NCBI GenBank assembly: GCA_049903315.1
Contig: JBNGBT010000008.1
Location: 62,330 to 126,329, forward strand
Source: Candidatus Cloacimonadota bacterium
GTDB lineage: Bacteria > Cloacimonadota > Cloacimonadia > JGIOTU-2
Length of the DNA: 64,000 nt
Direction of reading: 5' to 3'
In this document: piece by piece, positions 5,237-60,322 of the stretch
How the letters are laid out: the number at the start of each line of letters is the position of its first letter
Position numbering within the stretch: the stretch's first letter is position 1
The notes under the pieces: model-generated
What the model was told of the DNA's origin: nothing
The model's input: the letters and a program-made list of their open reading frames with translations, nothing else
Database searches by the model: none
Position numbers and translations under genes: made by a program

Positions 5237-5473
5237 ATGCCTGTGAAGAACAAAGGGTATTACAAAGAGGTTTTTGAGGGACTCGGGCTTGTGGCACAGC
5301 TCGGTCTCACAATGATTATTAACATTTTAATATTTTTTTTCGTAGGATTATTCATTGAAAAAAAATGGCATCTCAAAGGTATTCCAATAATCATCGGAGT
5401 TTTTTGCGGAGTTGTTTCAGGTGCATTTTCATGTTACCAACTCATAAAAAAAAATGAAAATTCTGACAAATAG
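5237..5473 (+). CDS. ATP synthase accessory membrane protein (AtpZ/gene-1 type)
   Basis: 78 aa, two TM helices, QLGLTMII...GLFIEKKW pattern, first gene of the atp cluster. Confidence 0.75.
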   Translation: MPVKNKGYYKEVFEGLGLVAQLGLTMIINILIFFFVGLFIEKKWHLKGIPIIIGVFCGVVSGAFSCYQLIKKNENSDK

Positions 5474-5837
5474 TTTTCGCAAGTACGTATATCATATTCT
5501 CGGGCTGATTTTCTTGACAGAGATACCGGCTCTTTTGCTTATCACACAAAACTTGAAGCTTTGGCTAGGTTATTTTCTTGGCTCAATTCTCTCAAGTGTG
5601 AATTTTTATTTTCAGGCAAAGGGCGCAGAGAGCAGAGTGGGACTAAGCCCCACAGGAGCAAAATTAAGCGTATTCAGGAATTTTTATATACGCTATTTGG
5701 TTTTGGTTGTATTCGTAGTTGTTTCTGTGAAGTTCTTAGAAGTAAATATTTTTTCTCTTCTTGTCGGCTTACTCATTGCTCCAGCTATTGTTCTAATCGA
5801 TGGTATTCATGCCGGAAAAAATAATCAGGAATCCTAA
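5454..5837 (+). CDS. atpI: ATP synthase protein I (AtpI-like)
   Basis: Four-TM 127-aa protein immediately before subunit a; GYFLGSILSSVNF and YIRY motifs. Confidence 0.75.
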   Translation: MKILTNSFRKYVYHILGLIFLTEIPALLLITQNLKLWLGYFLGSILSSVNFYFQAKGAESRVGLSPTGAKLSVFRNFYIRYLVLVVFVVVSVKFLEVNIFSLLVGLLIAPAIVLIDGIHAGKNNQES

Positions 5838-5853
5838 TAAGATATAAGTTGAT

Positions 5854-6684
5854 ATGAAAAAAAAGTCCAAGAAAGCATTGATAATAGTTCTTATAATAAT
5901 AGTTATTGAGGGGATACTTTCTGTCGGACTTAATCATGAACTTCAGGTTGGAATTGATGATGGCAGATTCGTTATCAGAAATATTGAGAGTGAAAAATCC
6001 ATTCAGGATCAGATCAATCATGAATTCCAAAACTATCATATAGTAAAGCTTTTCGGAAAATTTACTATCAATTGGAGCGTGTTGCGCGTTATTCTTTTTG
6101 TAGATCTTTTTTTGATATTATTTGCAGCGCTTGTCAGACGAAAGATGCATCTTATCCCAGGGAAATTACAAATTATTGCAGAGATGATATATTCGTTTTT
6201 TTCCAGTCTTGTGATTGAAACAGTCGGTGAGAAGAAGAAATATTTCACGCCCTATATTTTTACAATATTTGTGTTTATCTGGATATGCAATATAATCGGA
6301 ATGATCCCCATTCCGGGAAATCTTGAGCCAACCAGGAATTTAAATGTTCCTCTTGGACTAGGACTCATGGCGCTGGTAATTGTTCATTATTCCGCAATAA
6401 AAGAAAAAGGAATGAAGCTCTACCTGAAAGAATATGCCGAACCGATTTCTTTCATGCTCCCCATAAACATTGTCGGCGAAATTGCAAAAGGGATTTCTCT
6501 CTCCTTTCGTCTTTTCGGGAATATTCTTGGAGGAGCTATCATTATTCTCGTAGTTTCGAATCTCACCCGTTTTATTCTTATCCCGGTTGGTCTTAATCTG
6601 TTTTTTGGTTTGTTCATCGGAACGGTGCAGGCATTTGTGTTCACCATGCTTGTGCTGTCATATACCGCAGTGGCAATAAAATAA
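5854..6684 (+). CDS. atpB: F0 ATP synthase subunit a
   Basis: PGKLQIIAE, PTRNLNVPLGL, ISLSFRLFGNILGG with the essential Arg, VQAFVFTML. Confidence 0.95.
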   Translation: MKKKSKKALIIVLIIIVIEGILSVGLNHELQVGIDDGRFVIRNIESEKSIQDQINHEFQNYHIVKLFGKFTINWSVLRVILFVDLFLILFAALVRRKMHLIPGKLQIIAEMIYSFFSSLVIETVGEKKKYFTPYIFTIFVFIWICNIIGMIPIPGNLEPTRNLNVPLGLGLMALVIVHYSAIKEKGMKLYLKEYAEPISFMLPINIVGEIAKGISLSFRLFGNILGGAIIILVVSNLTRFILIPVGLNLFFGLFIGTVQAFVFTMLVLSYTAVAIK

Positions 6685-6685
6685 T

Positions 6686-7417
6686 ATGTTTGATACCTTT
6701 AGTTTAGTACACGTTGCAGCATACCTCGGTGCAGGTCTTGCAGTCGGCATTTCGTCGATCGGAGCAGGCATTGGAGAGGGCTATATTGCAGGCAATGCGA
6801 ACATTGCAATGATGAAGCAGCCGAAATCAAACGATATTCTTCTTCGCACTATGCTTATCGCACAGGCAATTACAGAAACCGGAGCTATCTTTGCACTCGT
6901 GATCGCAATGCTTCTCCTTTTTGGTGGTTCTATTATACCCGAAGCTAACTGGCAGAGGATCGCTTCATTATTTGGTGCGGGACTTGTTATGGGAGCGGGT
7001 TGTCTCGGAACCGGTCTTGGAATCGGGTATGCTGGCGGACAGGCGTGCAAGGGAATAGGCAGGCAGCCACGAGAATCAAAAGTTCTTACAGCAAACATGC
7101 TTATTGGGCAAGCGCTGTCCGAAACATCGGCTATTTTTGCCTTGGTCATTGCGATGCTTCTTCTTTATTCTACACCTGACGGAAACAGCATCGTGAAATC
7201 TTTCGCTTTTATTGGTGCAGCATTTGCAATGGGATTCGGAACGTTCGGTCCCGGATTTGGCATCGGTATTGTGGCGGGAAAAACCGTTGACGGTATCAGC
7301 AGGTTTCCAAAGCAGTCTGCAGTACTTGTGAGAACGATGTTCGTAGGCGCCGCTGTGTCGGAGTCAACTTCAATATATGCATTAGTTATTGCATTTTTAT
7401 TATTATTTGTAGCATGA
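6686..7417 (+). CDS. atpE: Fused triple c subunit (three tandem F-type c hairpins, about six TM helices)
   Basis: Three c-like units with GxGxG helices and QAITETGAIF / QALSETSAIF / AAVSESTSIY, each keeping the ion-binding Glu. Confidence 0.88.
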   Translation: MFDTFSLVHVAAYLGAGLAVGISSIGAGIGEGYIAGNANIAMMKQPKSNDILLRTMLIAQAITETGAIFALVIAMLLLFGGSIIPEANWQRIASLFGAGLVMGAGCLGTGLGIGYAGGQACKGIGRQPRESKVLTANMLIGQALSETSAIFALVIAMLLLYSTPDGNSIVKSFAFIGAAFAMGFGTFGPGFGIGIVAGKTVDGISRFPKQSAVLVRTMFVGAAVSESTSIYALVIAFLLLFVA

Positions 7418-7438
7418 TTATAATCCTTAGGAGGATAC

Positions 7439-7678
7439 ATGGAAAGTGAAATCATTAGAGCGGCAGCATTATTGGGTGCTGGCATTTGTATGGGCTTCGG
7501 TGCTATCGGACCTGGAATCGGCGAAGGTTTTACCGCCGGAAAGGCATGTGAAGGCATCGCACGTTCACCCGAAAACGCCGGACTACTCACCAGAACAATG
7601 CTTGTCGGTCAAGCAGTATCAGAATCAACCGGTATCTATTCACTGGTCATTTCTCTATTACTTATTTTCGCAGTGTAA
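7439..7678 (+). CDS. atpE: F0 ATP synthase subunit c, Na+-type signature
   Basis: 79 aa; GPGIGEG and GQAVSESTGIYS; GGAGG RBS. Confidence 0.95.
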   Translation: MESEIIRAAALLGAGICMGFGAIGPGIGEGFTAGKACEGIARSPENAGLLTRTMLVGQAVSESTGIYSLVISLLLIFAV

Positions 7679-7682
7679 GAAC

Positions 7683-7719
7683 TCCCGTCAAATCGGGAAG
7701 GAACCCCGAAATTTCGGGG
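7683..7719. other. Two hairpins between atpE and atpF
   Basis: TCCCG-tcaaat-CGGGA (7683-7698) and perfect palindrome CCCCGAAATTTCGGGG (7704-7719), whose end overlaps the atpF SD sequence GGAGGAG. Confidence 0.55.
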
Positions 7720-7732
7720 AGGAGTATCAAGT

Positions 7733-8233
7733 ATGGTTAATATTGATTATACGCTTATTCTGGTGATCGTAAATTTCATTGTTTTGCTATTCATCCTGAA
7801 AAAGCTCTTGTATAAGCCGCTCATGGACTTTATCAACAAAAGAGAATCTCAGATAAGAGATGACCTCCAGGGCGCAAAAGAGCTTAAAGAAGAATCTACC
7901 AAGATTCTTGAGAAGCAGAAAGAATTGCTTCGAAAAGCAAAAGAAGAAGCCAGAAGTATACGTGATGAAGCAACAAAAAGTGCGAAAATACAGAGCGAGC
8001 AAATTCTTCATGATTCCGAAAAACAACGGGATGTGATAATACAGGAAGCTCAGGAAATTATCGATGTAGAAGTAAACAAAGCAAAAGAAAGCATTCAGTC
8101 TCAGATTGGAGATTTTGTCATAGAACTGACCGATAAAATCATCGGCAAGAAACTCACCGAAGATGATGATGTGAAACTCATTAACGATATGATAAAAGAA
8201 GAGAGCAAAAAAAAGGAGTCGTCTGTTGATTAG
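7733..8233 (+). CDS. atpF: F0 ATP synthase subunit b
   Basis: N-terminal TM NFIVLLFILKKLLYKP followed by a long charged coiled coil. Confidence 0.93.
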   Translation: MVNIDYTLILVIVNFIVLLFILKKLLYKPLMDFINKRESQIRDDLQGAKELKEESTKILEKQKELLRKAKEEARSIRDEATKSAKIQSEQILHDSEKQRDVIIQEAQEIIDVEVNKAKESIQSQIGDFVIELTDKIIGKKLTEDDDVKLINDMIKEESKKKESSVD

Positions 8234-8756
8234 AAATATCATTGCAAGAAGATACTCATCAGCGCTTCTTGAGATTATCAAGAGGGATGATCTCGTACAT
8301 TTTGAGAATGAGATCTCAGCATTGCAGACAATCCTGAAAGATGAGCCAGAAATTGAGGAATTTCTTGTCTCGCCCATTGTCGAGGATGAGCATAAAACCG
8401 AAATTATTGGGCTTCTCGTAAAAGAATTTAATGCATCAGAGGTGCTGCACAATTTCCTGAATGTACTCGTTGATAAAGAAAGGATATTCTATATTGCAGA
8501 CATTCTTAAGGAATTGATCAGAAGAATACACAAGGAAATCGGCATCTTTGATTTTGAGCTTAAGACAGCACATGAACTCGATGAAGAAACAAGTGAAAAT
8601 ATAAAAAAATTCATCTCAAAATATGTTGATGGAAAAATAATATTTAAACATACGATTGATCGGCATATTAGAGGTGGCTTTCTCGCATTTAATGATGAAC
8701 TGGCGGTAAATGCATCGATCAGAAACAATCTTGATGCTCTGAAAAGAGAGTTTTAA
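8226..8756 (+). CDS. atpH: F1 ATP synthase subunit delta
   Basis: [10 protein letters not shown] start, [17 protein letters not shown]; lies between b and alpha. Confidence 0.9.
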
Positions 8757-8782: not shown

Positions 8783-10486
8783 ATGATGAAAATACAACCT
8801 GATGAAATCAGTAGAATAATCAAAGAAAAAATTGAAAAGTATAACTATAAAGTTGATATAGACGAAGTCGGCAGAGTTATCGAGGTCGGTGACGGTATCG
8901 CACGTGTGTATGGCCTGCAGGATGTCATGGCATCGGAACTTGTCCTTTTCAATAATGAAATCTACGGTATGGCACTAAATCTGGAAGAGGATAATGTCGG
9001 CTGTATCATCCTTGGCGAAAGTGATAAAATCAAAGAGGGTGATATTGTCAAAAGGACAAAGAAGATCGTACAAGTACCGGTCGGCGAAGCAACGCTGGGA
9101 CGTGTGGTGGATCCCCTCGGAATGCCTCTTGATGGAAAAGAGCCGATAAAATCCAAACTGAGTATGCCTATTGAGAGAAAAGCACTTGGCGTTATTGCAC
9201 GACAACCAGTGATAGAACCCCTGCAATCCGGGCTGAAAGCTATCGACTCCATGATCCCCATCGGAAGAGGACAACGTGAACTCATAATTGGTGATAGACA
9301 AACCGGAAAAACAGCCCTCGCGGTTGATACGATCATAAACCAGAAAGATACAGACGTCTATTGTATTTATGTGGCGATTGGACAGAAAAGATCGTCAGTA
9401 GCAAAGGTCGTTGAGGCATTGAGAGAGCATGGAGCGCTGGATTATACAATTATCGTATCAGCAACCGCTTCCGATCCTGCTGCAATACAGTATATCGCTC
9501 CTTATTCCGGTGTCACAATGGGCGAATATTTCCGCGACAGAGGTAAGCATGTACTGGTAATTTATGATGACCTTTCCAAACATGCTGTTGCATATCGCCA
9601 GATTTCACTTCTGCTCCGCAGACCTCCCGGTCGTGAAGCATATCCCGGCGATGTTTTCTATCTCCATTCACGACTTCTTGAAAGAGCGTCAAAACTCGAA
9701 GAAATTTATATCATCATACCAAAAGAAATGGAAAAAGCAGAAGAAGGTGTGAATAAAAAAGAATATCGAAGGCATATTAAATCAAGCGATGAAGAACTCA
9801 AAAAAGATCTTAAGGAATTAGGAAATGATAAATTCAAGTTCTATAAGCTGCCGGAAACAGGCGGTTCACTCACTGCTCTACCAATAATCGAAACCCAGGC
9901 AAGTGACATTTCTGCATACATTCCCACGAACGTGATCTCAATTACGGACGGTCAGATATATCTCGAATCAAAGCTCTTTTATTCCGGTGTGCGACCTGCG
10001 ATCAATGCAGGATTATCGGTTTCACGAGTTGGGGGCAAAGCACAGATAAAGGCAATGAGACAGGTTGCAGGAAGATTGCGTATTGAACTTGCTCAGTTCA
10101 GAGAGCTGGAAGCGTTTGCGAAATTCGGCGCAGAGCTTGATAAGGATACTCAGGATCAACTTAATCGCGGGTACAGGTATGTAGAAATACTCAAACAGGG
10201 TCAGTACAAACCAATTCCCGTTGCCAAGCAGATTGCAATAATTTTCATGGGTTATGAAGGATATCTTGATGACCTTCCGGTCGATATTATACAGGATGTT
10301 CAGGCAGAGCTTTTCGAATTAATGGATGAAGATTATCAGAAACTACAAAAAGAACTAGTTAAACCAGATGGAGTGACAGAAGAAGTCGAAAAGCAATTGC
10401 ACGAGTTATCAAAAAAAGTAAAAAAAGTTTTCGAGCATCAGGTCATCGTAGAAGAAATAATCGAAGAAGAAGCATCAGCGAAATAG
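8783..10486 (+). CDS. atpA: F1 ATP synthase subunit alpha (with internal insertion and C-terminal extension)
   Basis: [51 protein letters not shown]. Confidence 0.97.
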
Positions 10487-10487
10487 T

Positions 10488-12893
<2,406 letters not shown>

Positions 12894-12894
<1 letters not shown>

Positions 12895-13313
12895 TGGCCA
12901 ATAATTCACAATTGCTTCATTTAAAAATAGTCACACCTAGGGGAGTATTCTTTGAAGATGACGTGGGTGAGCTCGTTGCTCCCGGCAAAGATGGTGATTT
13001 TGGAGTCCAGACCGGGCATACGCCATTTATATCTTCAGTGAGACCCGGCATTTTGAAAATCTATAAAAACGACAAACCAGAGCTCTATTCTCTAATCAAT
13101 GGTTTTGTGATGGTGGATGTCGATAAGGTGAGAATTTTCACAGAAATAATAGAAAAACCGGAAGATATCGATAAAAACAGAGCAGAGCGTGCAAAACAAC
13201 GAGCTGAAAAACGCCTGCAGGAGAAAAAGGAACATACGGATCTTCGTCGCGCTGAAGGTGCGCTGAGAAGAGCTATTGCCCGTATTCAGATAAGCGAAGA
13301 GGGATTTCACTAA
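12894..13313 (+). CDS. atpC: F1 ATP synthase subunit epsilon
   Basis: LKIVTP, GDFGVQTGHTP, IDKNRAERAKQRAEKRL, ALRRAIARI. Confidence 0.95.
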
Positions 13314-54660: not shown

Positions 54661-55167
54661 ATGAAAAAAATATATTTGATGATACTTATTGTTTTGCTTG
54701 CTGTTCCCCAGATAGTATTTGCGCAGGACACGACCAAAGTGTATAAGGTTGATAAATCAAAATGTATCGGCTGTACTATTTGCGTAAAAGATGGAAAATG
54801 TCCAACCGATGCAATAGAGATGAAGAATGGAAAAGCAGTTATTGATCCGACTAAATGCATAGACTGCGGTATATGCGCAATGCAGTGTCCTGTTGCAGCG
54901 ATTCAAGAAGTTGAGTATGTAGATAGCAGCGCAATAGTTGTGGAAGAAATTGTAGTTGAAGCTGAAGATACAAGTGCGATTGAGCAGTCGTCATATACTG
55001 TTGATGCAGAGGGCTGTATTGGCTGTGCGATCTGCGTTCGGAAATGTCCTGTTGGAGCGATCAGCATGAAGGACAGCAAAGCAGTAATAGATACGGAGAA
55101 ATGCATAAATTGTGGAATTTGTGCAAATGCATGCCCCGTGAAGGCAATACACAAAGCGGATGAGTAG
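54661..55167 (+). CDS. Exported polyferredoxin (two 2x[4Fe-4S] domains)
   Basis: Sec-type signal MKKIYLMILIVLLAVPQIVFA-Q; four Cys motifs CIGCTIC..CP, CIDCGICAMQCP, CIGCAICVRKCP, CINCGICANACP; acidic linker. Confidence 0.85.
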   Translation: MKKIYLMILIVLLAVPQIVFAQDTTKVYKVDKSKCIGCTICVKDGKCPTDAIEMKNGKAVIDPTKCIDCGICAMQCPVAAIQEVEYVDSSAIVVEEIVVEAEDTSAIEQSSYTVDAEGCIGCAICVRKCPVGAISMKDSKAVIDTEKCINCGICANACPVKAIHKADE

Positions 55168-58100
55168 AAGAAAAAAATACACACTCTACTTTCTTGCTGC
55201 TGTTTCTTTGTTATTCATTCTTTTACACTGCTCGGATAAGACCAAAAAGCTTTTTATCTATGATGGTGATGTCCGGATTGAATATTCACGGTGTACAGGA
55301 TGCTATGAATGCATTGATGAGTTCGAATGTCCGCAGAATGCGATAATAAAGGACAACAAGCATATCACCGCATATATTGATCCTGATAAGTGTATTCAAT
55401 GTATGAAGTGCATAGATGTCTTTTCCTGTAAAGATAATGCACTCACAGTTCAAAAAGATATAATATCTCCAGGTGCAATTAAAGACTTTTATACATGCTC
55501 GGATTCTGCCGGACGGCTTGAGATACAGTTCACTGCCCCAGGGGATGATTCAACTGATGGCAGGGCATATAATTATTCACTACACCTCACGTCTAACAAA
55601 AATACTATTACTTATGATTTTGATGTACCAGTCCCCTCAGAAGCGAACACAATGGAATATTGGCGGATTGAAGGTCTTCCTCTTAATGAAATGATAACAG
55701 TAAAACTTGATGCGAGCGATGAAGTTGGGAATATGTCCGGCATAATACAGGCAACTCTTACCATCGCTAATATTGATACAATCCCACCTGCCCAGATAAC
55801 CGATCTGTTTTCTGTGCCGCAACTTTCAACAATAGAGTTGCAATGGACATCTCCGGGTGATGATGGCCATGAGGGCATGGCGGATTCATATGAACTGCGA
55901 AAAGCAGAAGTTTCTATTACCGAGGATAATTGGGATGACGCTGAGGTTTTAGAGTATGCCCCAATCCCCGAAGAACCATACACACTTCAATCCTATGTAG
56001 TAGAAGATAGTCTTGTTCAGGACAGAATATATTATTTTGCGATTAAAACTACTGATGATTCAGGGAATATATCAGAGATTTCAAACTGTGCGTATAATGA
56101 AATAATCGGCGATACGATCCCGCCAGCCAATATCACTGATATCAAGGTTACTTCAACCGGTTTTCAAACAGCTCACATCCGATGGACTGCTCCCGGCGAT
56201 GACAATGCAGAGGGTGCTTCTTCATATTATATAATCAAGATTTCAGAAGATGAGATAACGGATGACAACTGGAATTCAATTGAACCGTACGACAATACCA
56301 TCATTCCCCAATCAGCAGGCGGAACAGAGAACTTTCTCTTCGACAACCTTGCAGGAGATACAGAATATTATATCGGAATTAAGGCAGTTGATGAGGTTGA
56401 AAACGTTTCAGGACTTTCAAATGTTGCGCAAGCTGTGACTCAAGAAGTTCCAGACAACACACCCCCGAATCCTATCGCGGATCTCACCACGGTAGAAACA
56501 GAGACAGAAATTACACTGTCATGGACTGCTCCTGGAGATGATGGGACCACGGGAATAGCTTCATTCTACGTTTTGAAATATAGTGAGAATCTAATCACGG
56601 CAGGTAACTGGTCTTCAACCCAAACACTTCCCAATGCTCCTATTCCAGAAGAATCCGGCACAGCACAGAATTATATAGTGAGTAACGTCGAACCGGGCAT
56701 AGAATACTATTTTGCTATCCGTTCATATGATGATGCATTGAATATTTCGAATCTGTCAAATGTAGTAGCAGGTTCTCTTTTGCAAGATATAATTCCACCT
56801 TCTGATATATCAGATCTGGACGCACAATCAACAGAAACCGAGATCATCTTACAGTGGACTGCTCCCGGCGATGATGGGAATATCGGAACTGCGGACTCCT
56901 ATGATTTACGATATTCAACAGAGTTCATTTCTCAGGGAAATTGGCAGAATGCTACAGCGATCAGCGATGTGGCCGATCCATTTATATCTGGTACACTCCA
57001 ATCATACATTTTTGATTATGGTTCCATTGGAACAGACTATTTCTTTTCAATAAAAGCTAAAGATGATAATGGCAACGAAGCGGGATTATCCAATATTGCC
57101 TCAGGACAAATTCTTGGAGATATTACCCCGCCTTCAGCCGTACTGGATCTGGCATCATTTGCAACAGAGGAAATGATAACTCTCATGTGGACTGCACCCG
57201 GCGATGATGGAGATAACGGCACAGCTGAATTTTATGATGTCAGATATAACACGGAGCATATTGATGATACAAATTGGAATGATTCCTATCAGTGCGATAA
57301 TGAGCCAGTACCAATGCCTGCGGGTGCAGAACAGCAATATGAAATCAGCGGATTGCTTCAGGGTGAAGTGTACTATTTTGGGATGAAAAGTGCAGATGAG
57401 AATAATAATTATTCACTCATTTCAAATATTATTTCTGCTTCTTTATTATCCGATACAACACCACCCGTAGCGATTGCAGATCTTATAGTTCATAATTTCT
57501 CTTCACATTCGATCCAGATACGTTGGACTGCAGTTGGTGATGATGAATTTGAGGGAACTGCAGATTCTTACGTGATTAAGGTCTATGACGGGGAAATAAA
57601 TGAAAGCAATTGGGCAAGCATTCCGGAATATACCCAGAATTTAACTCCGCAACAATCCGGAATGCAAGAAATGCTGCTTCTCTCACAACTGCAGCCGGAA
57701 ACCGAGTATTATGTCGGACTGAAAGTACTCGACGATGCACAGAATATTTCCGGCTTATCAAACATTGTGAATGCAACCACAACTGCAACCCCAGACACAG
57801 TATCGCCGGCTCAAGTAATTGATTTGTCTGCACTTGCAACAGAGATCGATATTACACTCTCATGGACAGCGCCGGGGGATGATGGGAATGAAGGGCTAGC
57901 TGCATTTTATGAAATAAGAGAAAATAGCGTTATGATTACTCCTGATAATTGGGAGTCTTCTGAGCTATTGACAAATATTCCTTTGCCTGCGGAATCCGGA
58001 ACAGTACAATCTTATATCTTAGATGATGCAGAGCCCGGAATACAGTATTTCTTTGCTCTTAAAACCTATGATGACGCATCCAATGTTTCTGTGATTTCAA

Positions 58101-60322
58101 ATAGTGCTTCAGCATTACTTTTACAGGACACAACACCTCCTTCGCAAATCGCAGACCTGTCTGCGGAAGCAACAGAGATTGATATTACACTTTCATGGAC
58201 AGCACCAGGTGATGATGGAAATGTGGGATTGGCATCATATTATGAGATCAGAAAAAATAATGCAGAGATAACTTCTGCTAATTGGAATTCCTACGAACTG
58301 TTACCAGACATTCCTATTCCTGAAGACCCCGGCACATTTCAGTCATACACTTTTTCGGAACCCGTGCCAGACGAGGTATATTATTTTGGCATTAAGACTT
58401 TCGATGATATGGAAAATGTCTCAGATCTTTCAAATATTGTGTCAGGAACTCTGCTGCAGGATACGGAACCTCCTTCAGATATAACCGACCTGCTTGCAGA
58501 ATCATACGAAACAGAGATAATCCTTCAGTGGACTGCTTCCGGTGATGATGGTGATCTTGGATTGGCTTCCTATTATCAGATCAGGAGAAATAGTGTGGAG
58601 ATAACTCTTACCAATTGGAATTCATCCCCACTTTTGCCCGATATTCCACAACCTGCTGACCCGGGCACGATCCAGTCCTGTGCTTTTACGGAAGCAGAGC
58701 CCGGAACGGTGTATTATTTTGCCATAAAAACTTTCGATGATATGGGAAATGTATCCGGTCTTTCAAATATTGTGTCGGCAACTCTACTGCAGGACACAGA
58801 GCCGCCGTCAGATATAACCGACCTGCATGCGGGATCCTACGAAACTGAGATCGTCCTGCAGTGGACAGCATCCGGTGATGATGGCATGGTTGGAACTGCG
58901 GAATCCTATGATATGAGATATAATTTTGAAGAAATAAATGAAAATAACTGGGATTATGCATTATCAATAAGCGATGTAGCGGCACCATCCCCTTCTGGCA
59001 CTACCGAATCATATATTTTTACTGGCGGACCAGTCGGACTTGAGCTTTTCTTCGCTATCAAAGCTTTAGATGAAAATGGCAATGAATCCGGGTTGTCCAA
59101 CGTAGCATCCGGTCAGATCCTTGGTGATATCACACCTCCTTCTGCCATCAATAATCTTACTATATCAAATGTTACTTTTGAGAGCTTAATGCTCTCATGG
59201 ACTTCAGTTGGCGATGACGGGCTTTCTGGTGTTGCATCGGGTTATACAATAAAAATTCATACCGAAGAAATTACTGAGCAGAACTGGAATTCGATTACGG
59301 AATATGCTCAAAATATGATCCCTCAGCCCTCGGGTTCAATGGAAATGATCCTGATAGAGAATCTCTTATCGGAAACTGAATATTTTGCAGCGATCAAAGC
59401 TTTTGACGAAAATCAAAACTACTCGGATATCTCGAATGTTCCCAGCACTGTAACTCCTGAAGAGCCGGATATTATACCTCCTGATGCAATTAACGATCTT
59501 GATAGCAATGCGAGTGAAACAACGATTACATTGAGCTGGACTGCACCGGGCGACGACGGAAATACCGGAACAGCTGCATATTATGAAATTCGCAGATCCG
59601 AAGAACTCATCACAGAAGTAAACTGGTCTGCTGCAACACCTCTGACGAATCCACCTTCTCCTCAGCCTGCAGGAACACAACAGTCATATGAGGTGAACGG
59701 TCTCACAGGTGGTGTAGTGTATTATTTTGCTATAAAAACATTTGATGATGTAATGAATGTATCGGAATTATCAAATGTTGTTTTTGATATGCTCGAAGAA
59801 GATACGACGCCTCCATCACAGATAACCGATCTTATGGTTTTGGCAGGATACGCTTCTAATAATTCAACAATATCAATCCATTGGACAGCACCGGGTGATG
59901 ACGGCGCATTGGGAACTGCTGATCATTATGAAATCCGTTATGCAACATTTCAGATCAGTGAACTCAACTGGAATCTAGCGCAGGTATTTTTCAATCCACC
60001 CGCTCCGCAAACTGCAGGAACAATTCAAACATGTAATGTTACAGGTTTAAATGATGCGACAATTTACTACTTTGCCATCAAAGCATATGACGATAATAAT
60101 AATGCGGGGATCGCATCCAATTCTCCAGGTGGAAAAATAGTGTATCAAATCAGTACCGGTCCCTGTAACGGATGTGGAAACTGCGTGAATCATTGTCCGG
60201 AAAATGCGATCACTGATCATGGATCATATGCAACCATTGATCCTGATAAATGTGAAGCATGTGGTGACTGTGTCGGTTGGTGTCCGAGAAATGCAATTCA
60301 TTTGTATGTGGTGAGTTATTAA
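55160..60322 (+). CDS. Giant putative lipoprotein: ferredoxin domain + 14 FN3-like repeats + ferredoxin domain
   Basis: Signal ending LLHC; N-terminal CTGCYEC..CP / CIQCMKC..C; 14 repeats D-x-x-PP..I.DL...WTAPGDD...Y...YYFAIK..D; C-terminal CNGCGNCVNHCP / CEACGDCVGWCP. Confidence 0.85.
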   Translation: MSRRKKYTLYFLAAVSLLFILLHCSDKTKKLFIYDGDVRIEYSRCTGCYECIDEFECPQNAIIKDNKHITAYIDPDKCIQCMKCIDVFSCKDNALTVQKDIISPGAIKDFYTCSDSAGRLEIQFTAPGDDSTDGRAYNYSLHLTSNKNTITYDFDVPVPSEANTMEYWRIEGLPLNEMITVKLDASDEVGNMSGIIQATLTIANIDTIPPAQITDLFSVPQLSTIELQWTSPGDDGHEGMADSYELRKAEVSITEDNWDDAEVLEYAPIPEEPYTLQSYVVEDSLVQDRIYYFAIKTTDDSGNISEISNCAYNEIIGDTIPPANITDIKVTSTGFQTAHIRWTAPGDDNAEGASSYYIIKISEDEITDDNWNSIEPYDNTIIPQSAGGTENFLFDNLAGDTEYYIGIKAVDEVENVSGLSNVAQAVTQEVPDNTPPNPIADLTTVETETEITLSWTAPGDDGTTGIASFYVLKYSENLITAGNWSSTQTLPNAPIPEESGTAQNYIVSNVEPGIEYYFAIRSYDDALNISNLSNVVAGSLLQDIIPPSDISDLDAQSTETEIILQWTAPGDDGNIGTADSYDLRYSTEFISQGNWQNATAISDVADPFISGTLQSYIFDYGSIGTDYFFSIKAKDDNGNEAGLSNIASGQILGDITPPSAVLDLASFATEEMITLMWTAPGDDGDNGTAEFYDVRYNTEHIDDTNWNDSYQCDNEPVPMPAGAEQQYEISGLLQGEVYYFGMKSADENNNYSLISNIISASLLSDTTPPVAIADLIVHNFSSHSIQIRWTAVGDDEFEGTADSYVIKVYDGEINESNWASIPEYTQNLTPQQSGMQEMLLLSQLQPETEYYVGLKVLDDAQNISGLSNIVNATTTATPDTVSPAQVIDLSALATEIDITLSWTAPGDDGNEGLAAFYEIRENSVMITPDNWESSELLTNIPLPAESGTVQSYILDDAEPGIQYFFALKTYDDASNVSVISNSASALLLQDTTPPSQIADLSAEATEIDITLSWTAPGDDGNVGLASYYEIRKNNAEITSANWNSYELLPDIPIPEDPGTFQSYTFSEPVPDEVYYFGIKTFDDMENVSDLSNIVSGTLLQDTEPPSDITDLLAESYETEIILQWTASGDDGDLGLASYYQIRRNSVEITLTNWNSSPLLPDIPQPADPGTIQSCAFTEAEPGTVYYFAIKTFDDMGNVSGLSNIVSATLLQDTEPPSDITDLHAGSYETEIVLQWTASGDDGMVGTAESYDMRYNFEEINENNWDYALSISDVAAPSPSGTTESYIFTGGPVGLELFFAIKALDENGNESGLSNVASGQILGDITPPSAINNLTISNVTFESLMLSWTSVGDDGLSGVASGYTIKIHTEEITEQNWNSITEYAQNMIPQPSGSMEMILIENLLSETEYFAAIKAFDENQNYSDISNVPSTVTPEEPDIIPPDAINDLDSNASETTITLSWTAPGDDGNTGTAAYYEIRRSEELITEVNWSAATPLTNPPSPQPAGTQQSYEVNGLTGGVVYYFAIKTFDDVMNVSELSNVVFDMLEEDTTPPSQITDLMVLAGYASNNSTISIHWTAPGDDGALGTADHYEIRYATFQISELNWNLAQVFFNPPAPQTAGTIQTCNVTGLNDATIYYFAIKAYDDNNNAGIASNSPGGKIVYQISTGPCNGCGNCVNHCPENAITDHGSYATIDPDKCEACGDCVGWCPRNAIHLYVVSY
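55450..60135 (+). repeat. Tandem array of 14 FN3-like coding repeats (about 330-345 nt each)
   Basis: W/F-T-A/S-P/V/S-GDD motif counted 14 times; the junctions near 58430 and 58760 remain highly similar at DNA level. Confidence 0.85.

What the first reader, a model, noticed from the sequence alone, without database searches (positions are those of the whole stretch)
6686..7678. F-type ATP synthase with a triple-fused c subunit plus a normal c subunit (hybrid rotor)
Seen: a 243-aa gene made of three c hairpins precedes a standard 79-aa c. All three units keep the helix-2 Glu. The helix-1 polar ligand is present only in unit 1 (GIGEG versus GLGIG and GFGIG), and the ESTxxY motif is intact only in unit 3. 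Known: Acetobacterium woodii has a hybrid ring with a doubled c1 lacking one site, and triplicated c occurs in the A-type enzyme of Methanocaldococcus jannaschii. Inference: a triple c in a bacterial F-type operon would give a heteromeric ring with degenerate Na+ sites or mixed Na+/H+ sites, changing the ion/ATP ratio in an energy-limited anaerobe.
Basis: partly seen in the sequence, partly recalled or inferred. Interest (0 to 1): 0.8.

Follow-up and report, generated by a model that had tools for sequence, protein, structure and literature searches.

The report
Triple-hairpin ATP synthase rotor subunit
Next to its normal sodium-binding rotor protein, this anaerobic bacterium's ATP synthase encodes a genuine three-in-one rotor protein whose outer faces fit normal sodium sites while its two inner sites look like proton sites, so the rotor may move both ions in one turn.

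Summary
The genome's only rotary ATPase (F-type, Cloacimonadota) has a 243-aa three-hairpin c gene before a 79-aa two-carboxylate Na+-type c. The pair is standard in F-type Cloacimonadota; 2- to 6-hairpin relatives occur in other phyla. Ring sites lie between hairpins, so the pattern reads: both outward faces complete normal Na+ sites with single c neighbours (same polarity as Acetobacterium woodii c1), while the two inner sites lack the position-32 ligand and Tyr70. The last hairpin keeps Ser/Thr/Tyr in 119 of 120 homologues, even Glu-less ones, and the triple has a weak ribosome site, pointing to a low-copy member of a mixed ring. Three Glu is rare: hairpin 2 has Gln in 82 of 85 homologues. 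In this family Gln→Glu goes with Asn32→Ile and Pro/Ala28→Thr in two separate genera, the only diagnostic columns. Best guess: about nine Na+ plus two H+-type sites; unproven. This scan found the family seven times before. I found no paper on it, but two key papers were unreadable. New variant of the A. woodii hybrid rotor.

The parts
5237..5473 (+). atpZ-like (ATPase_gene1)
   Evidence: Pfam PF09527, E 4e-10
5454..5837 (+). atpI, c-ring assembly factor
   Evidence: Pfam PF03899, E 2e-8
5854..6684 (+). atpB, subunit a; stop codon one base before the triple-c start
   Evidence: Pfam PF00119; sequence
6686..7417 (+). Three-hairpin c subunit, 243 aa, six TM helices; weak ribosome site (-1.5 kcal/mol)
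   Evidence: best structure match A. woodii c1, 4BEM chain J
6695..6922 (+). Hairpin 1: Glu31 + Glu64 form a complete outward Na+ half-site; its inward face is degenerate (Thr65, Gly66, Phe69)
   Evidence: geometry from PMC2359735 and PMC3692424
6950..7168 (+). Hairpin 2: Thr109, Ile113, Glu146 (family norm Pro/Ala, Asn/Ser/Ala, Gln); donor face Thr147, Ser148, Phe151
7190..7408 (+). Hairpin 3: Pro189, Ile193, Glu226; Ser227, Thr228, Tyr231 form a complete outward donor face
7429..7434 (+). Strong Shine-Dalgarno site of the single c gene (-10.2 kcal/mol, top 5% of 1629 long ORFs in the genome)
7439..7678 (+). Single-hairpin c, 79 aa, full two-carboxylate Na+ motif (Pro25, Glu29, Glu62, Ser63, Thr64, Tyr67), Fusobacterium type
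7683..7719 (+). Two small stem-loops between atpE and the atpF ribosome site; not beyond chance (z -1.5)
7733..8233 (+). atpF, subunit b
8226..8756 (+). atpH, delta, full length
8783..13313 (+). atpA, atpG, atpD, atpC (F1: alpha, gamma, beta, epsilon)
   Evidence: TIGR00962, TIGR01146, TIGR01039, TIGR01216 above cut-off; N-type (alt_F1F0) models below cut-off

Best explanation
The triple is a low-copy (probably single-copy) building block of the c-ring of a Na+-coupled F1Fo ATP synthase, replacing three single c subunits. SHOWN: the genes, motifs, conservation, fold and ribosome-site asymmetry. FROM KNOWN GEOMETRY: each site uses Glu65 and residue 32 of one hairpin and Ser66, Thr67, Tyr70 of the preceding hairpin. 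So hairpin 1 (Glu31/Glu64) completes a normal Na+ site with the c before it, and hairpin 3 (Ser227/Thr228/Tyr231) completes one with the c after it. INFERRED: the two inner sites (Glu146 with Ile113, Thr65, Gly66, Phe69; Glu226 with Ile193, Thr147, Ser148, Phe151) have lost the Na+ ligand network and are H+-type. They must be neutralised to re-enter the membrane after passing subunit a, most likely by a proton. With an assumed 11-hairpin ring and one triple, a turn moves about 9 Na+ plus 2 H+. Relatives with Gln or Gly at these positions have 10, 9 or 8 sites, so across the phylum the triple works as a heritable gear setting. I put ring membership at about 0.8 and proton carriage, given membership, at about 0.5.
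For: Last hairpin keeps Ser66 in 120 of 120, Thr67 and Tyr70 in 119 of 120 multi-hairpin homologues; first hairpin has Phe70 in 120 of 120. Four loci with no Glu in any hairpin (L045-L048) still keep Ser-Thr-Tyr on hairpin 3. 79 of 80 four-hairpin loci do too. A. woodii c1 shows the same polarity; the AlphaFold model (pLDDT 92.6, pTM 0.86) matches it at 1.7 A over 164 residues, Z 19.2. Single c has the stronger ribosome site in 51 of 53 loci (some genomes counted twice) and 63 of 63 four-hairpin loci. Complex prediction, triple plus four c: weak support, score 0.38, best control 0.00, runs agree in at least 89% of contacts, partner pLDDT at least 70; the mark was met by 116 of 157 solved and 2 of 215 mismatched pairs, but at 0.60 or under by only 18 solved and both mismatches, and likeness to 4BEM may explain it. 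Among 16 family triples (8 Glu, 8 Gln in hairpin 2) the only columns with no shared residue are 109, 113 and 146 (ring positions 28, 32, 65); none in a, b, delta or gamma; 2 of 6435 possible 8/8 splits give three or more such columns (kin are not independent). The Glu state occurs in two separated clades, each beside Gln relatives. Hairpin 3 keeps Glu with Ile/Val32 in 75 of 85. H+ sites are mainly hydrophobic (PMC3692424). Recalled, not checked: the P. modestum cQ32I change shifted coupling from Na+ to H+. The genome has Rnf, a Na+-pyrophosphatase and Mrp-like antiporter subunits, and no V-type subunit I.
Against: No biochemical data; ring size and copy number are assumed. Hairpin 3 keeps Ile/Val32 in the 10 of 85 homologues that lost its Glu, so Ile32 does not depend on the Glu. 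Other hairpin-2 Glu gains (L019, L020, P0045) have Pro28/Ser32, not Thr/Ile. Both inner sites keep Thr66, and one keeps Ser67, whereas H+-type rings have an aliphatic residue at 67 (PMC2359735), so weak Na+ or Li+ binding is possible. The triple gene is mosaic, so the two Thr/Ile/Glu clades may share one origin by recombination rather than convergence. Glu content ranges from 0 to 3 across the phylum, which also fits relaxed selection.
Confidence: 0.42

Rival explanations
1. Mixed ring, but the inner Glu residues are inert (permanently protonated, structural). The triple is an ion-blind spacer as in A. woodii c1, giving about 9 Na+ per turn (3.0 per ATP).
For: Hairpin 2 is Gln in 82 of 85 and family members with zero Glu exist. 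Four-hairpin relatives are EQQE (38) or EQQQ (38) of 80. The spacer logic is published for V-type c subunits (PMC9171764 Discussion).
Against: Does not explain why Glu146 goes with exactly Thr109 and Ile113 in two clades, nor why hairpin 3 keeps Glu in 22 QQE homologues that lost the hairpin-1 site.
Confidence: 0.2
2. Mixed ring in which the inner sites still carry Na+ with reduced coordination (Glu65, Thr66, backbone 63, water). The three-Glu form simply restores 11 Na+ per turn.
For: Thr66 is kept on both inner donor faces and Ser67 on one. PMC2359735 notes that ligands can be reshuffled in fused hairpins.
Against: Position 32 is Ile and Tyr70 is Phe at both inner sites. The switch to Glu removes an Asn at 32 that could have been a ligand.
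Confidence: 0.18
3. The triple is an assembly scaffold or nucleus working with AtpI and subunit a. It is optional in, or absent from, the mature ring.
For: Weak ribosome site, like subunit a. It stays next to atpB when the operon is split (L015, L172: a-triple-alpha). Five- and six-hairpin forms with one Glu would be very long blind arcs in an 11-ring.
Against: Ser/Thr/Tyr on the last hairpin and Glu32/Glu65 on the first are what ion binding across a triple-c interface would need. A. woodii c1 is one copy in the mature ring (PMC9171764).
Confidence: 0.12
4. The triple forms its own ring (for example four copies, 12 hairpins) or is incorporated in variable numbers as a regulated gear.
For: Hairpin 1's Glu face and hairpin 3's donor face are complementary head to tail. 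The triple lacks the roughly 16-residue N-terminal extension of A. woodii c1, recalled to limit c1 to one copy.
Against: Weak ribosome site. Glu-less triples could not work alone. No separate promoter signal above chance.
Confidence: 0.06
5. Assembly artefact or neutral tandem duplication.
For: None found; two loci carry frameshifted copies (L028, L039).
Against: Diverged units, phylum-wide synteny, dN/dS about 0.02-0.03.
Confidence: 0.01

Closest known systems
Acetobacterium woodii (and Clostridium aceticum) F/V-hybrid Na+ c-ring: c1 plus c2/c3 (PDB 4BEM)
   Same: Fused multi-hairpin c gene directly before a single Na+-type c in an F-type operon with atpI. First hairpin keeps Glu and has Phe70; last keeps Thr/Thr/Tyr. 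Best sequence hit (E 1.4e-26) and best fold hit.
   Different: Three hairpins, not two. All three keep Glu65, whereas c1 hairpin 2 has Gln. Inner position 32 is Ile, not Gln. No N-terminal extension. Partner c is two-carboxylate type and is encoded once.
Fusobacterium nucleatum c11 two-carboxylate Na+ ring (PDB 3ZK1)
   Same: The single c and the outward face of hairpin 1 have Glu32/Glu65; the single c has the full Ser66/Thr67/Tyr70 set.
   Different: F. nucleatum has a homomeric ring; its second proton is not transported (PMC3692424).
Methanocaldococcus jannaschii triplicated subunit K (A-type)
   Same: Three hairpins in one chain (PMC2359735).
   Different: A/V-type enzyme. The query scores 70 bits against a 211-bit cut-off on the 220-position K model PRK06271 (taken by me as the triplicated model), versus 168 on an F-type c model. 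Here a single c accompanies it in an F-type operon.
Methanosarcina acetivorans A1Ao, concurrent Na+/H+ coupling
   Same: Both ions may be used by one rotor (PMC3692424).
   Different: There every site is promiscuous; here the proposal is fixed, position-specific Na+ and H+ sites.

Membership tests
A. woodii-type hybrid rotor | F-type operon with a fused multi-hairpin c gene plus a single-hairpin c gene | tested here: met
A. woodii-type hybrid rotor | Single c carries the full Na+ motif | tested here: met
A. woodii-type hybrid rotor | Outward half-sites intact: first hairpin Glu face, last hairpin Ser/Thr/Tyr face | tested here: met
A. woodii-type hybrid rotor | Fused subunit has two hairpins (four TM helices) | tested here: not met
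   three hairpins, six helices
A. woodii-type hybrid rotor | Inner carboxylate replaced by Gln | tested here: not met
   Glu146 and Glu226 here; met for hairpin 2 in 82 of 85 homologues
A. woodii-type hybrid rotor | Fused subunit physically present in the ring | tested here: inconclusive
   weak support only, 0.38 versus best control 0.00; needs purification
Two-carboxylate Na+ c subunit (single c) | Glu32, Glu65, Ser66, Thr67, Tyr70 | tested here: met
Two-carboxylate Na+ c subunit (single c) | Na+-dependent activity, 11-hairpin ring | not testable with these tools
   11 hairpins assumed from PMC3692424
A/V-type triplicated K (Methanococcales) | Part of an A/V-type ATPase operon | tested here: not met
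   F-type neighbours; no V_ATPase_I match in a 96% complete genome
N-type (alternate) F-ATPase | alt_F1F0 models above cut-off; no separate delta | tested here: not met
   TIGR03322/03324/03305/03306 below cut-off; full delta present
H+-type c-ring site (inner sites) | Carboxylate without polar 32 and without Tyr70 network | tested here: met
   Ile113/Ile193, Phe69/Phe151
H+-type c-ring site (inner sites) | Aliphatic residue at 67, no hydroxyl at 66 | tested here: not met
   Thr65/Gly66 and Thr147/Ser148; criterion for 67 from PMC2359735, for 66 recalled
H+-type c-ring site (inner sites) | Measured H+ translocation | not testable with these tools
   none

The most novel reading that the evidence does not exclude
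A natural rotor with position-specific ion selectivity: about nine Na+ sites and two dedicated H+ sites in one ring, so every turn obligatorily couples both gradients. The hairpin-2 site is switched on or off between close relatives by a three-residue swap (Pro/Ala-Asn-Gln versus Thr-Ile-Glu), and a widespread 2- to 6-hairpin family sets ion/ATP gearing independently of ring size.
Probability: 0.35. Interest if true: 0.88.

Novelty: new variant of a known kind. Interest (0 to 1): 0.62.

Why it matters
Heteromeric F-type rotors are known from a handful of acetogens with a double hairpin. This shows a three-hairpin version fixed across most families of a phylum, with 2- to 6-hairpin relatives in other anaerobes and 0 to 3 carboxylates per triple. 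That is a natural series for testing how many ion-blind steps a rotor tolerates and how ion/ATP ratio is tuned in low-energy anaerobes. For an 11-hairpin ring, 11 versus 9 sites shifts the threshold from about 113 to 138 mV at 40 kJ/mol. If the inner sites carry protons, it would be a rotor with built-in separate Na+ and H+ sites, which I have not seen described.

Tried and rejected
Expression: seven RNA runs held only 5-7% of the words. Four were laid; short contigs of relatives cross the hairpin junctions and the triple-to-c gap, but contigs cannot show transcription or levels, so this is not used for expression or habitat. Promoter scan: 12 found versus 11.6 expected. atpE-atpF stem-loops are not significant (z -1.5). 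Gene conversion of hairpin 2 from hairpin 3: not supported, as helix 2 differs from Gln relatives essentially by the one codon. Recent transfer of hairpin 2 between the two Glu clades: not supported by third codon positions, but these are near saturation, so convergence versus old recombination stays open. Co-varying residues in a, b, delta, gamma: none. An IQ-TREE hairpin tree timed out; FastTree on 141 hairpins groups first hairpins across phyla (0.96) and middle ones (0.84) on only 75 columns, so a single origin is suggested, not shown. Na+-decarboxylase beta and V-type subunit I: no match. Literature: nine searches gave no description of a three-hairpin c in an F-type operon and no listed paper with 'Q32I'. 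Matthies 2014 and Brandt and Muller 2015 were not held.

Full report
1. Observation. The + strand carries a complete F-type operon: atpZ, atpI, a, a 243-aa c protein (6686-7417), a 79-aa c (7439-7678), b, delta, alpha, gamma, beta, epsilon. Pfam ATP-synt_C matches three times in the long protein. In I. tartaricus numbering (28, 32 | 65, 66, 67, 70) the units read A,E|E,T,G,F; T,I|E,T,S,F; P,I|E,S,T,Y and the single c P,E|E,S,T,Y. These four hairpins are the only ATP-synt_C matches in the 96% complete genome; there is one alpha/beta pair and no V-type subunit I. The units share 30-35 of 72 residues and 22-38% of third codon positions, so this is an old triplication, not a collapsed or duplicated assembly.

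2. Distribution. The closest named records are Candidatus Cloacimonadota. Of 30 genome loci, 28 have an intact three-hairpin ORF after atpB and 27 of those are followed by a single Na+-type c; one copy is frameshifted and one contig starts inside the gene. Across 232 genomes of the phylum, 116 of the 132 outside families f5/f6 gave exactly four c matches (6 gave none, 10 other counts); 88 of 100 in f5/f6 gave two. I take the latter as the V/A-type clade described in PMC12590816 (passages) but did not check them. Of the 30 loci returned there, 27 hold an intact triple plus single c, one a two-hairpin form, one a frameshifted copy and one an operon split between contigs. The best 120 of 568 homologues were 85 three-, 26 four- and 9 five-hairpin proteins; named longer ones are Desulfobacterales, Deltaproteobacteria and Bipolaricaulota, and a named three-hairpin one is Margulisiibacteriota. 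Eighty metagenome loci picked by a long-form alignment were all four-hairpin genes; 68 had a single Na+ c right after. A profile search gave 177 clusters at E up to 1e-30; the top 150 had 2 (23), 3 (46), 4 (71), 5 (4), 7-15 (5) or 1 (1) hairpins; their gene context was not examined.

3. Reading the sites. Ring sites are shared: Glu65 and Gln/Glu32 come from one hairpin, Ser66, Val63 and Tyr70 from the neighbour (PMC2359735 and PMC3692424, passages). In E. hirae K the Glu of the second hairpin pairs with donors of the first, which fixes the direction. So hairpin 1's Glu31/Glu64 face outward to the preceding subunit, hairpin 3's Ser227/Thr228/Tyr231 face the next, and the two inner sites combine Glu146 or Glu226 with Ile at 32 and Phe at 70. 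A. woodii c1 has the same polarity: AETSGIF then AQTTGIY. The family confirms it: last hairpin Ser66 120 of 120, Thr67 and Tyr70 119 of 120; first hairpin Phe70 120 of 120. Four loci with no Glu in any hairpin still keep Ser-Thr-Tyr on hairpin 3, which makes sense only if a single c sits next to it.

4. Structure and stoichiometry. AlphaFold gives three helical hairpins, pLDDT 92.6, pTM 0.86; the best match is A. woodii c1 (Foldseek E 1e-8; Z 19.2, 1.7 A, 164 residues). A complex of the triple with four single c gave weak support only (0.38, best control 0.00; details under evidence) and may reflect likeness to 4BEM. The triple starts one base after the atpB stop with a weak ribosome site (-1.5 kcal/mol) and the single c has a strong one (-10.2). 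The single c is the stronger in 51 of 53 loci (exceptions L020, L029; about ten genomes counted twice) and 63 of 63 four-hairpin loci. This fits a low-copy subunit; ribosome-site energy is only a rough guide (b is as strong as c in this window).

5. What is special here. Hairpin 2 has Glu in only 3 of 85 homologues. Among 47 distinct locus triples, enriched for close kin, patterns were EQE 20, EEE 10, QQE 9, GQQ 5, EQQ 2, GQE 1. In the window's family, the Glu state occurs in the window's clade and separately in L008/L068, whose sister L009 has Gln (support 100/99 on the triple, 98 on subunit a). Among 16 family sequences the only columns separating 8 Glu from 8 Gln forms are 109, 113 and 146, ring positions 28, 32 and 65; 2 of 6435 splits reach three columns. 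Position 146 defined the groups, and kin are not independent. Third codon positions do not join the two Glu clades, but the gene is mosaic, so convergence and old recombination both remain. Against a general rule: L019, L020 and P0045 gained Glu without Thr/Ile, and hairpin 3 keeps Ile/Val32 in the 10 of 85 that lost Glu. Purifying selection is strong (dN/dS about 0.02-0.03, five pairs).

6. Mechanism. The genome has two RnfD-like genes, a Na+-pyrophosphatase and Mrp-like subunits; PMC8542988 (passages) infers an Rnf-driven Na+ F-type synthase for related genera without mentioning the c genes in the passages seen. I infer a Na+ enzyme whose ring holds one triple. The inner carboxylates sit in hydrophobic pockets and most likely take H+ (H+ sites are mainly hydrophobic; the P. 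modestum Q32I result and E. coli Ile28 equivalence are recalled, not checked). With 11 hairpins assumed (all Na+ F-rings studied), that is 9 Na+ plus 2 H+; if the inner sites are inert, 9 per turn. Thresholds at 40 kJ/mol are 113, 124 and 138 mV for 11, 10 and 9 sites. Rivals are inert spacers (0.20), weak Na+ sites (0.18), an assembly scaffold (0.12) and own or variable rings (0.06).

7. Known versus new. It works like the A. woodii/C. aceticum hybrid rotor (PMC7911925 passages; PMC9171764 passages and Discussion) but fails two of its defining features: hairpin number and Gln at the inner site. It is not the A-type triplicated K nor an N-type ATPase. Nine searches found no description of three-hairpin c in F-type operons. 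A 2026 preprint (10.64898/2026.10.01.756066, passages) names only A. woodii for mixed rings; its supplements were closed and may show such operons. 10.1101/2024.02.27.582367 (passages) does not mention fused forms. Matthies 2014 and the genome survey by Brandt and Muller 2015 could not be read, so prior mention cannot be excluded. The scan's own notes list this family in seven other genomes; they agree but are not independent evidence.

8. Verdict. Real, conserved, a new variant of a known kind. Interest 0.62. The mixed Na+/H+ rotor is the bold reading (probability 0.35, interest 0.88).

Noticed in passing
L038:655-1140 (-) (G231): Natural two-hairpin form: hairpin 1 plus a hybrid with the Thr28/Ile32 helix of hairpin 2 and the ESTxxY helix of hairpin 3, before a normal c. 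A similar protein is P0195. Deletion derivative or assembly collapse not excluded.
   Followed up: partly
L045-L048 (family f17, single-contig 1.6 Mb genomes): Triple with no carboxylate at all (G, Q, Q) on a long branch, yet keeping Ser-Thr-Tyr on hairpin 3.
   Followed up: partly
L015 and L172 (G210): Operon split: atpB-triple is followed directly by alpha. In G210 the single c lies on another contig, and a V/A-type K gene cluster is also present (L177).
   Followed up: partly
P0127-P0129, P0131: Five- and six-hairpin c proteins (one named Bipolaricaulota) with Ile/Leu/Val32 plus Glu65 in every hairpin: possibly long runs of H+-type sites. Context not seen.
   Followed up: no
P0130, P0132-P0137: Eight-hairpin and 14- to 15-hairpin c/K proteins, two named Promethearchaeota, longer than the 13-hairpin Methanopyrus protein.
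   Followed up: no
P0196-P0291, about 318 aa: Large, diverse group of four-hairpin c proteins with a distinct pattern (often E, Q, E, D); lineage unnamed in the three clusters looked up.
   Followed up: partly
window 8783-10486: Alpha subunit has an insertion of about 50 charged residues splitting the nucleotide-binding domain (after residue 306).
   Followed up: no
window 11335-12894: Beta subunit ends in a highly charged tail of about 40 residues.
   Followed up: no
window 5854-6090: Subunit a has an N-terminal extension of about 55-75 residues with a hydrophobic segment, conserved in the family.
   Followed up: no
L029 (record titled Anaerolineales): A triple plus single c with an unusually long subunit b (317 aa) in a GC-rich-looking contig outside Cloacimonadota.
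   Followed up: no
window 55160-60322: 1720-aa protein with repeated stretches hitting TIGR00868 below cut-off and a C-terminal Fe-S-type domain.
   Followed up: no
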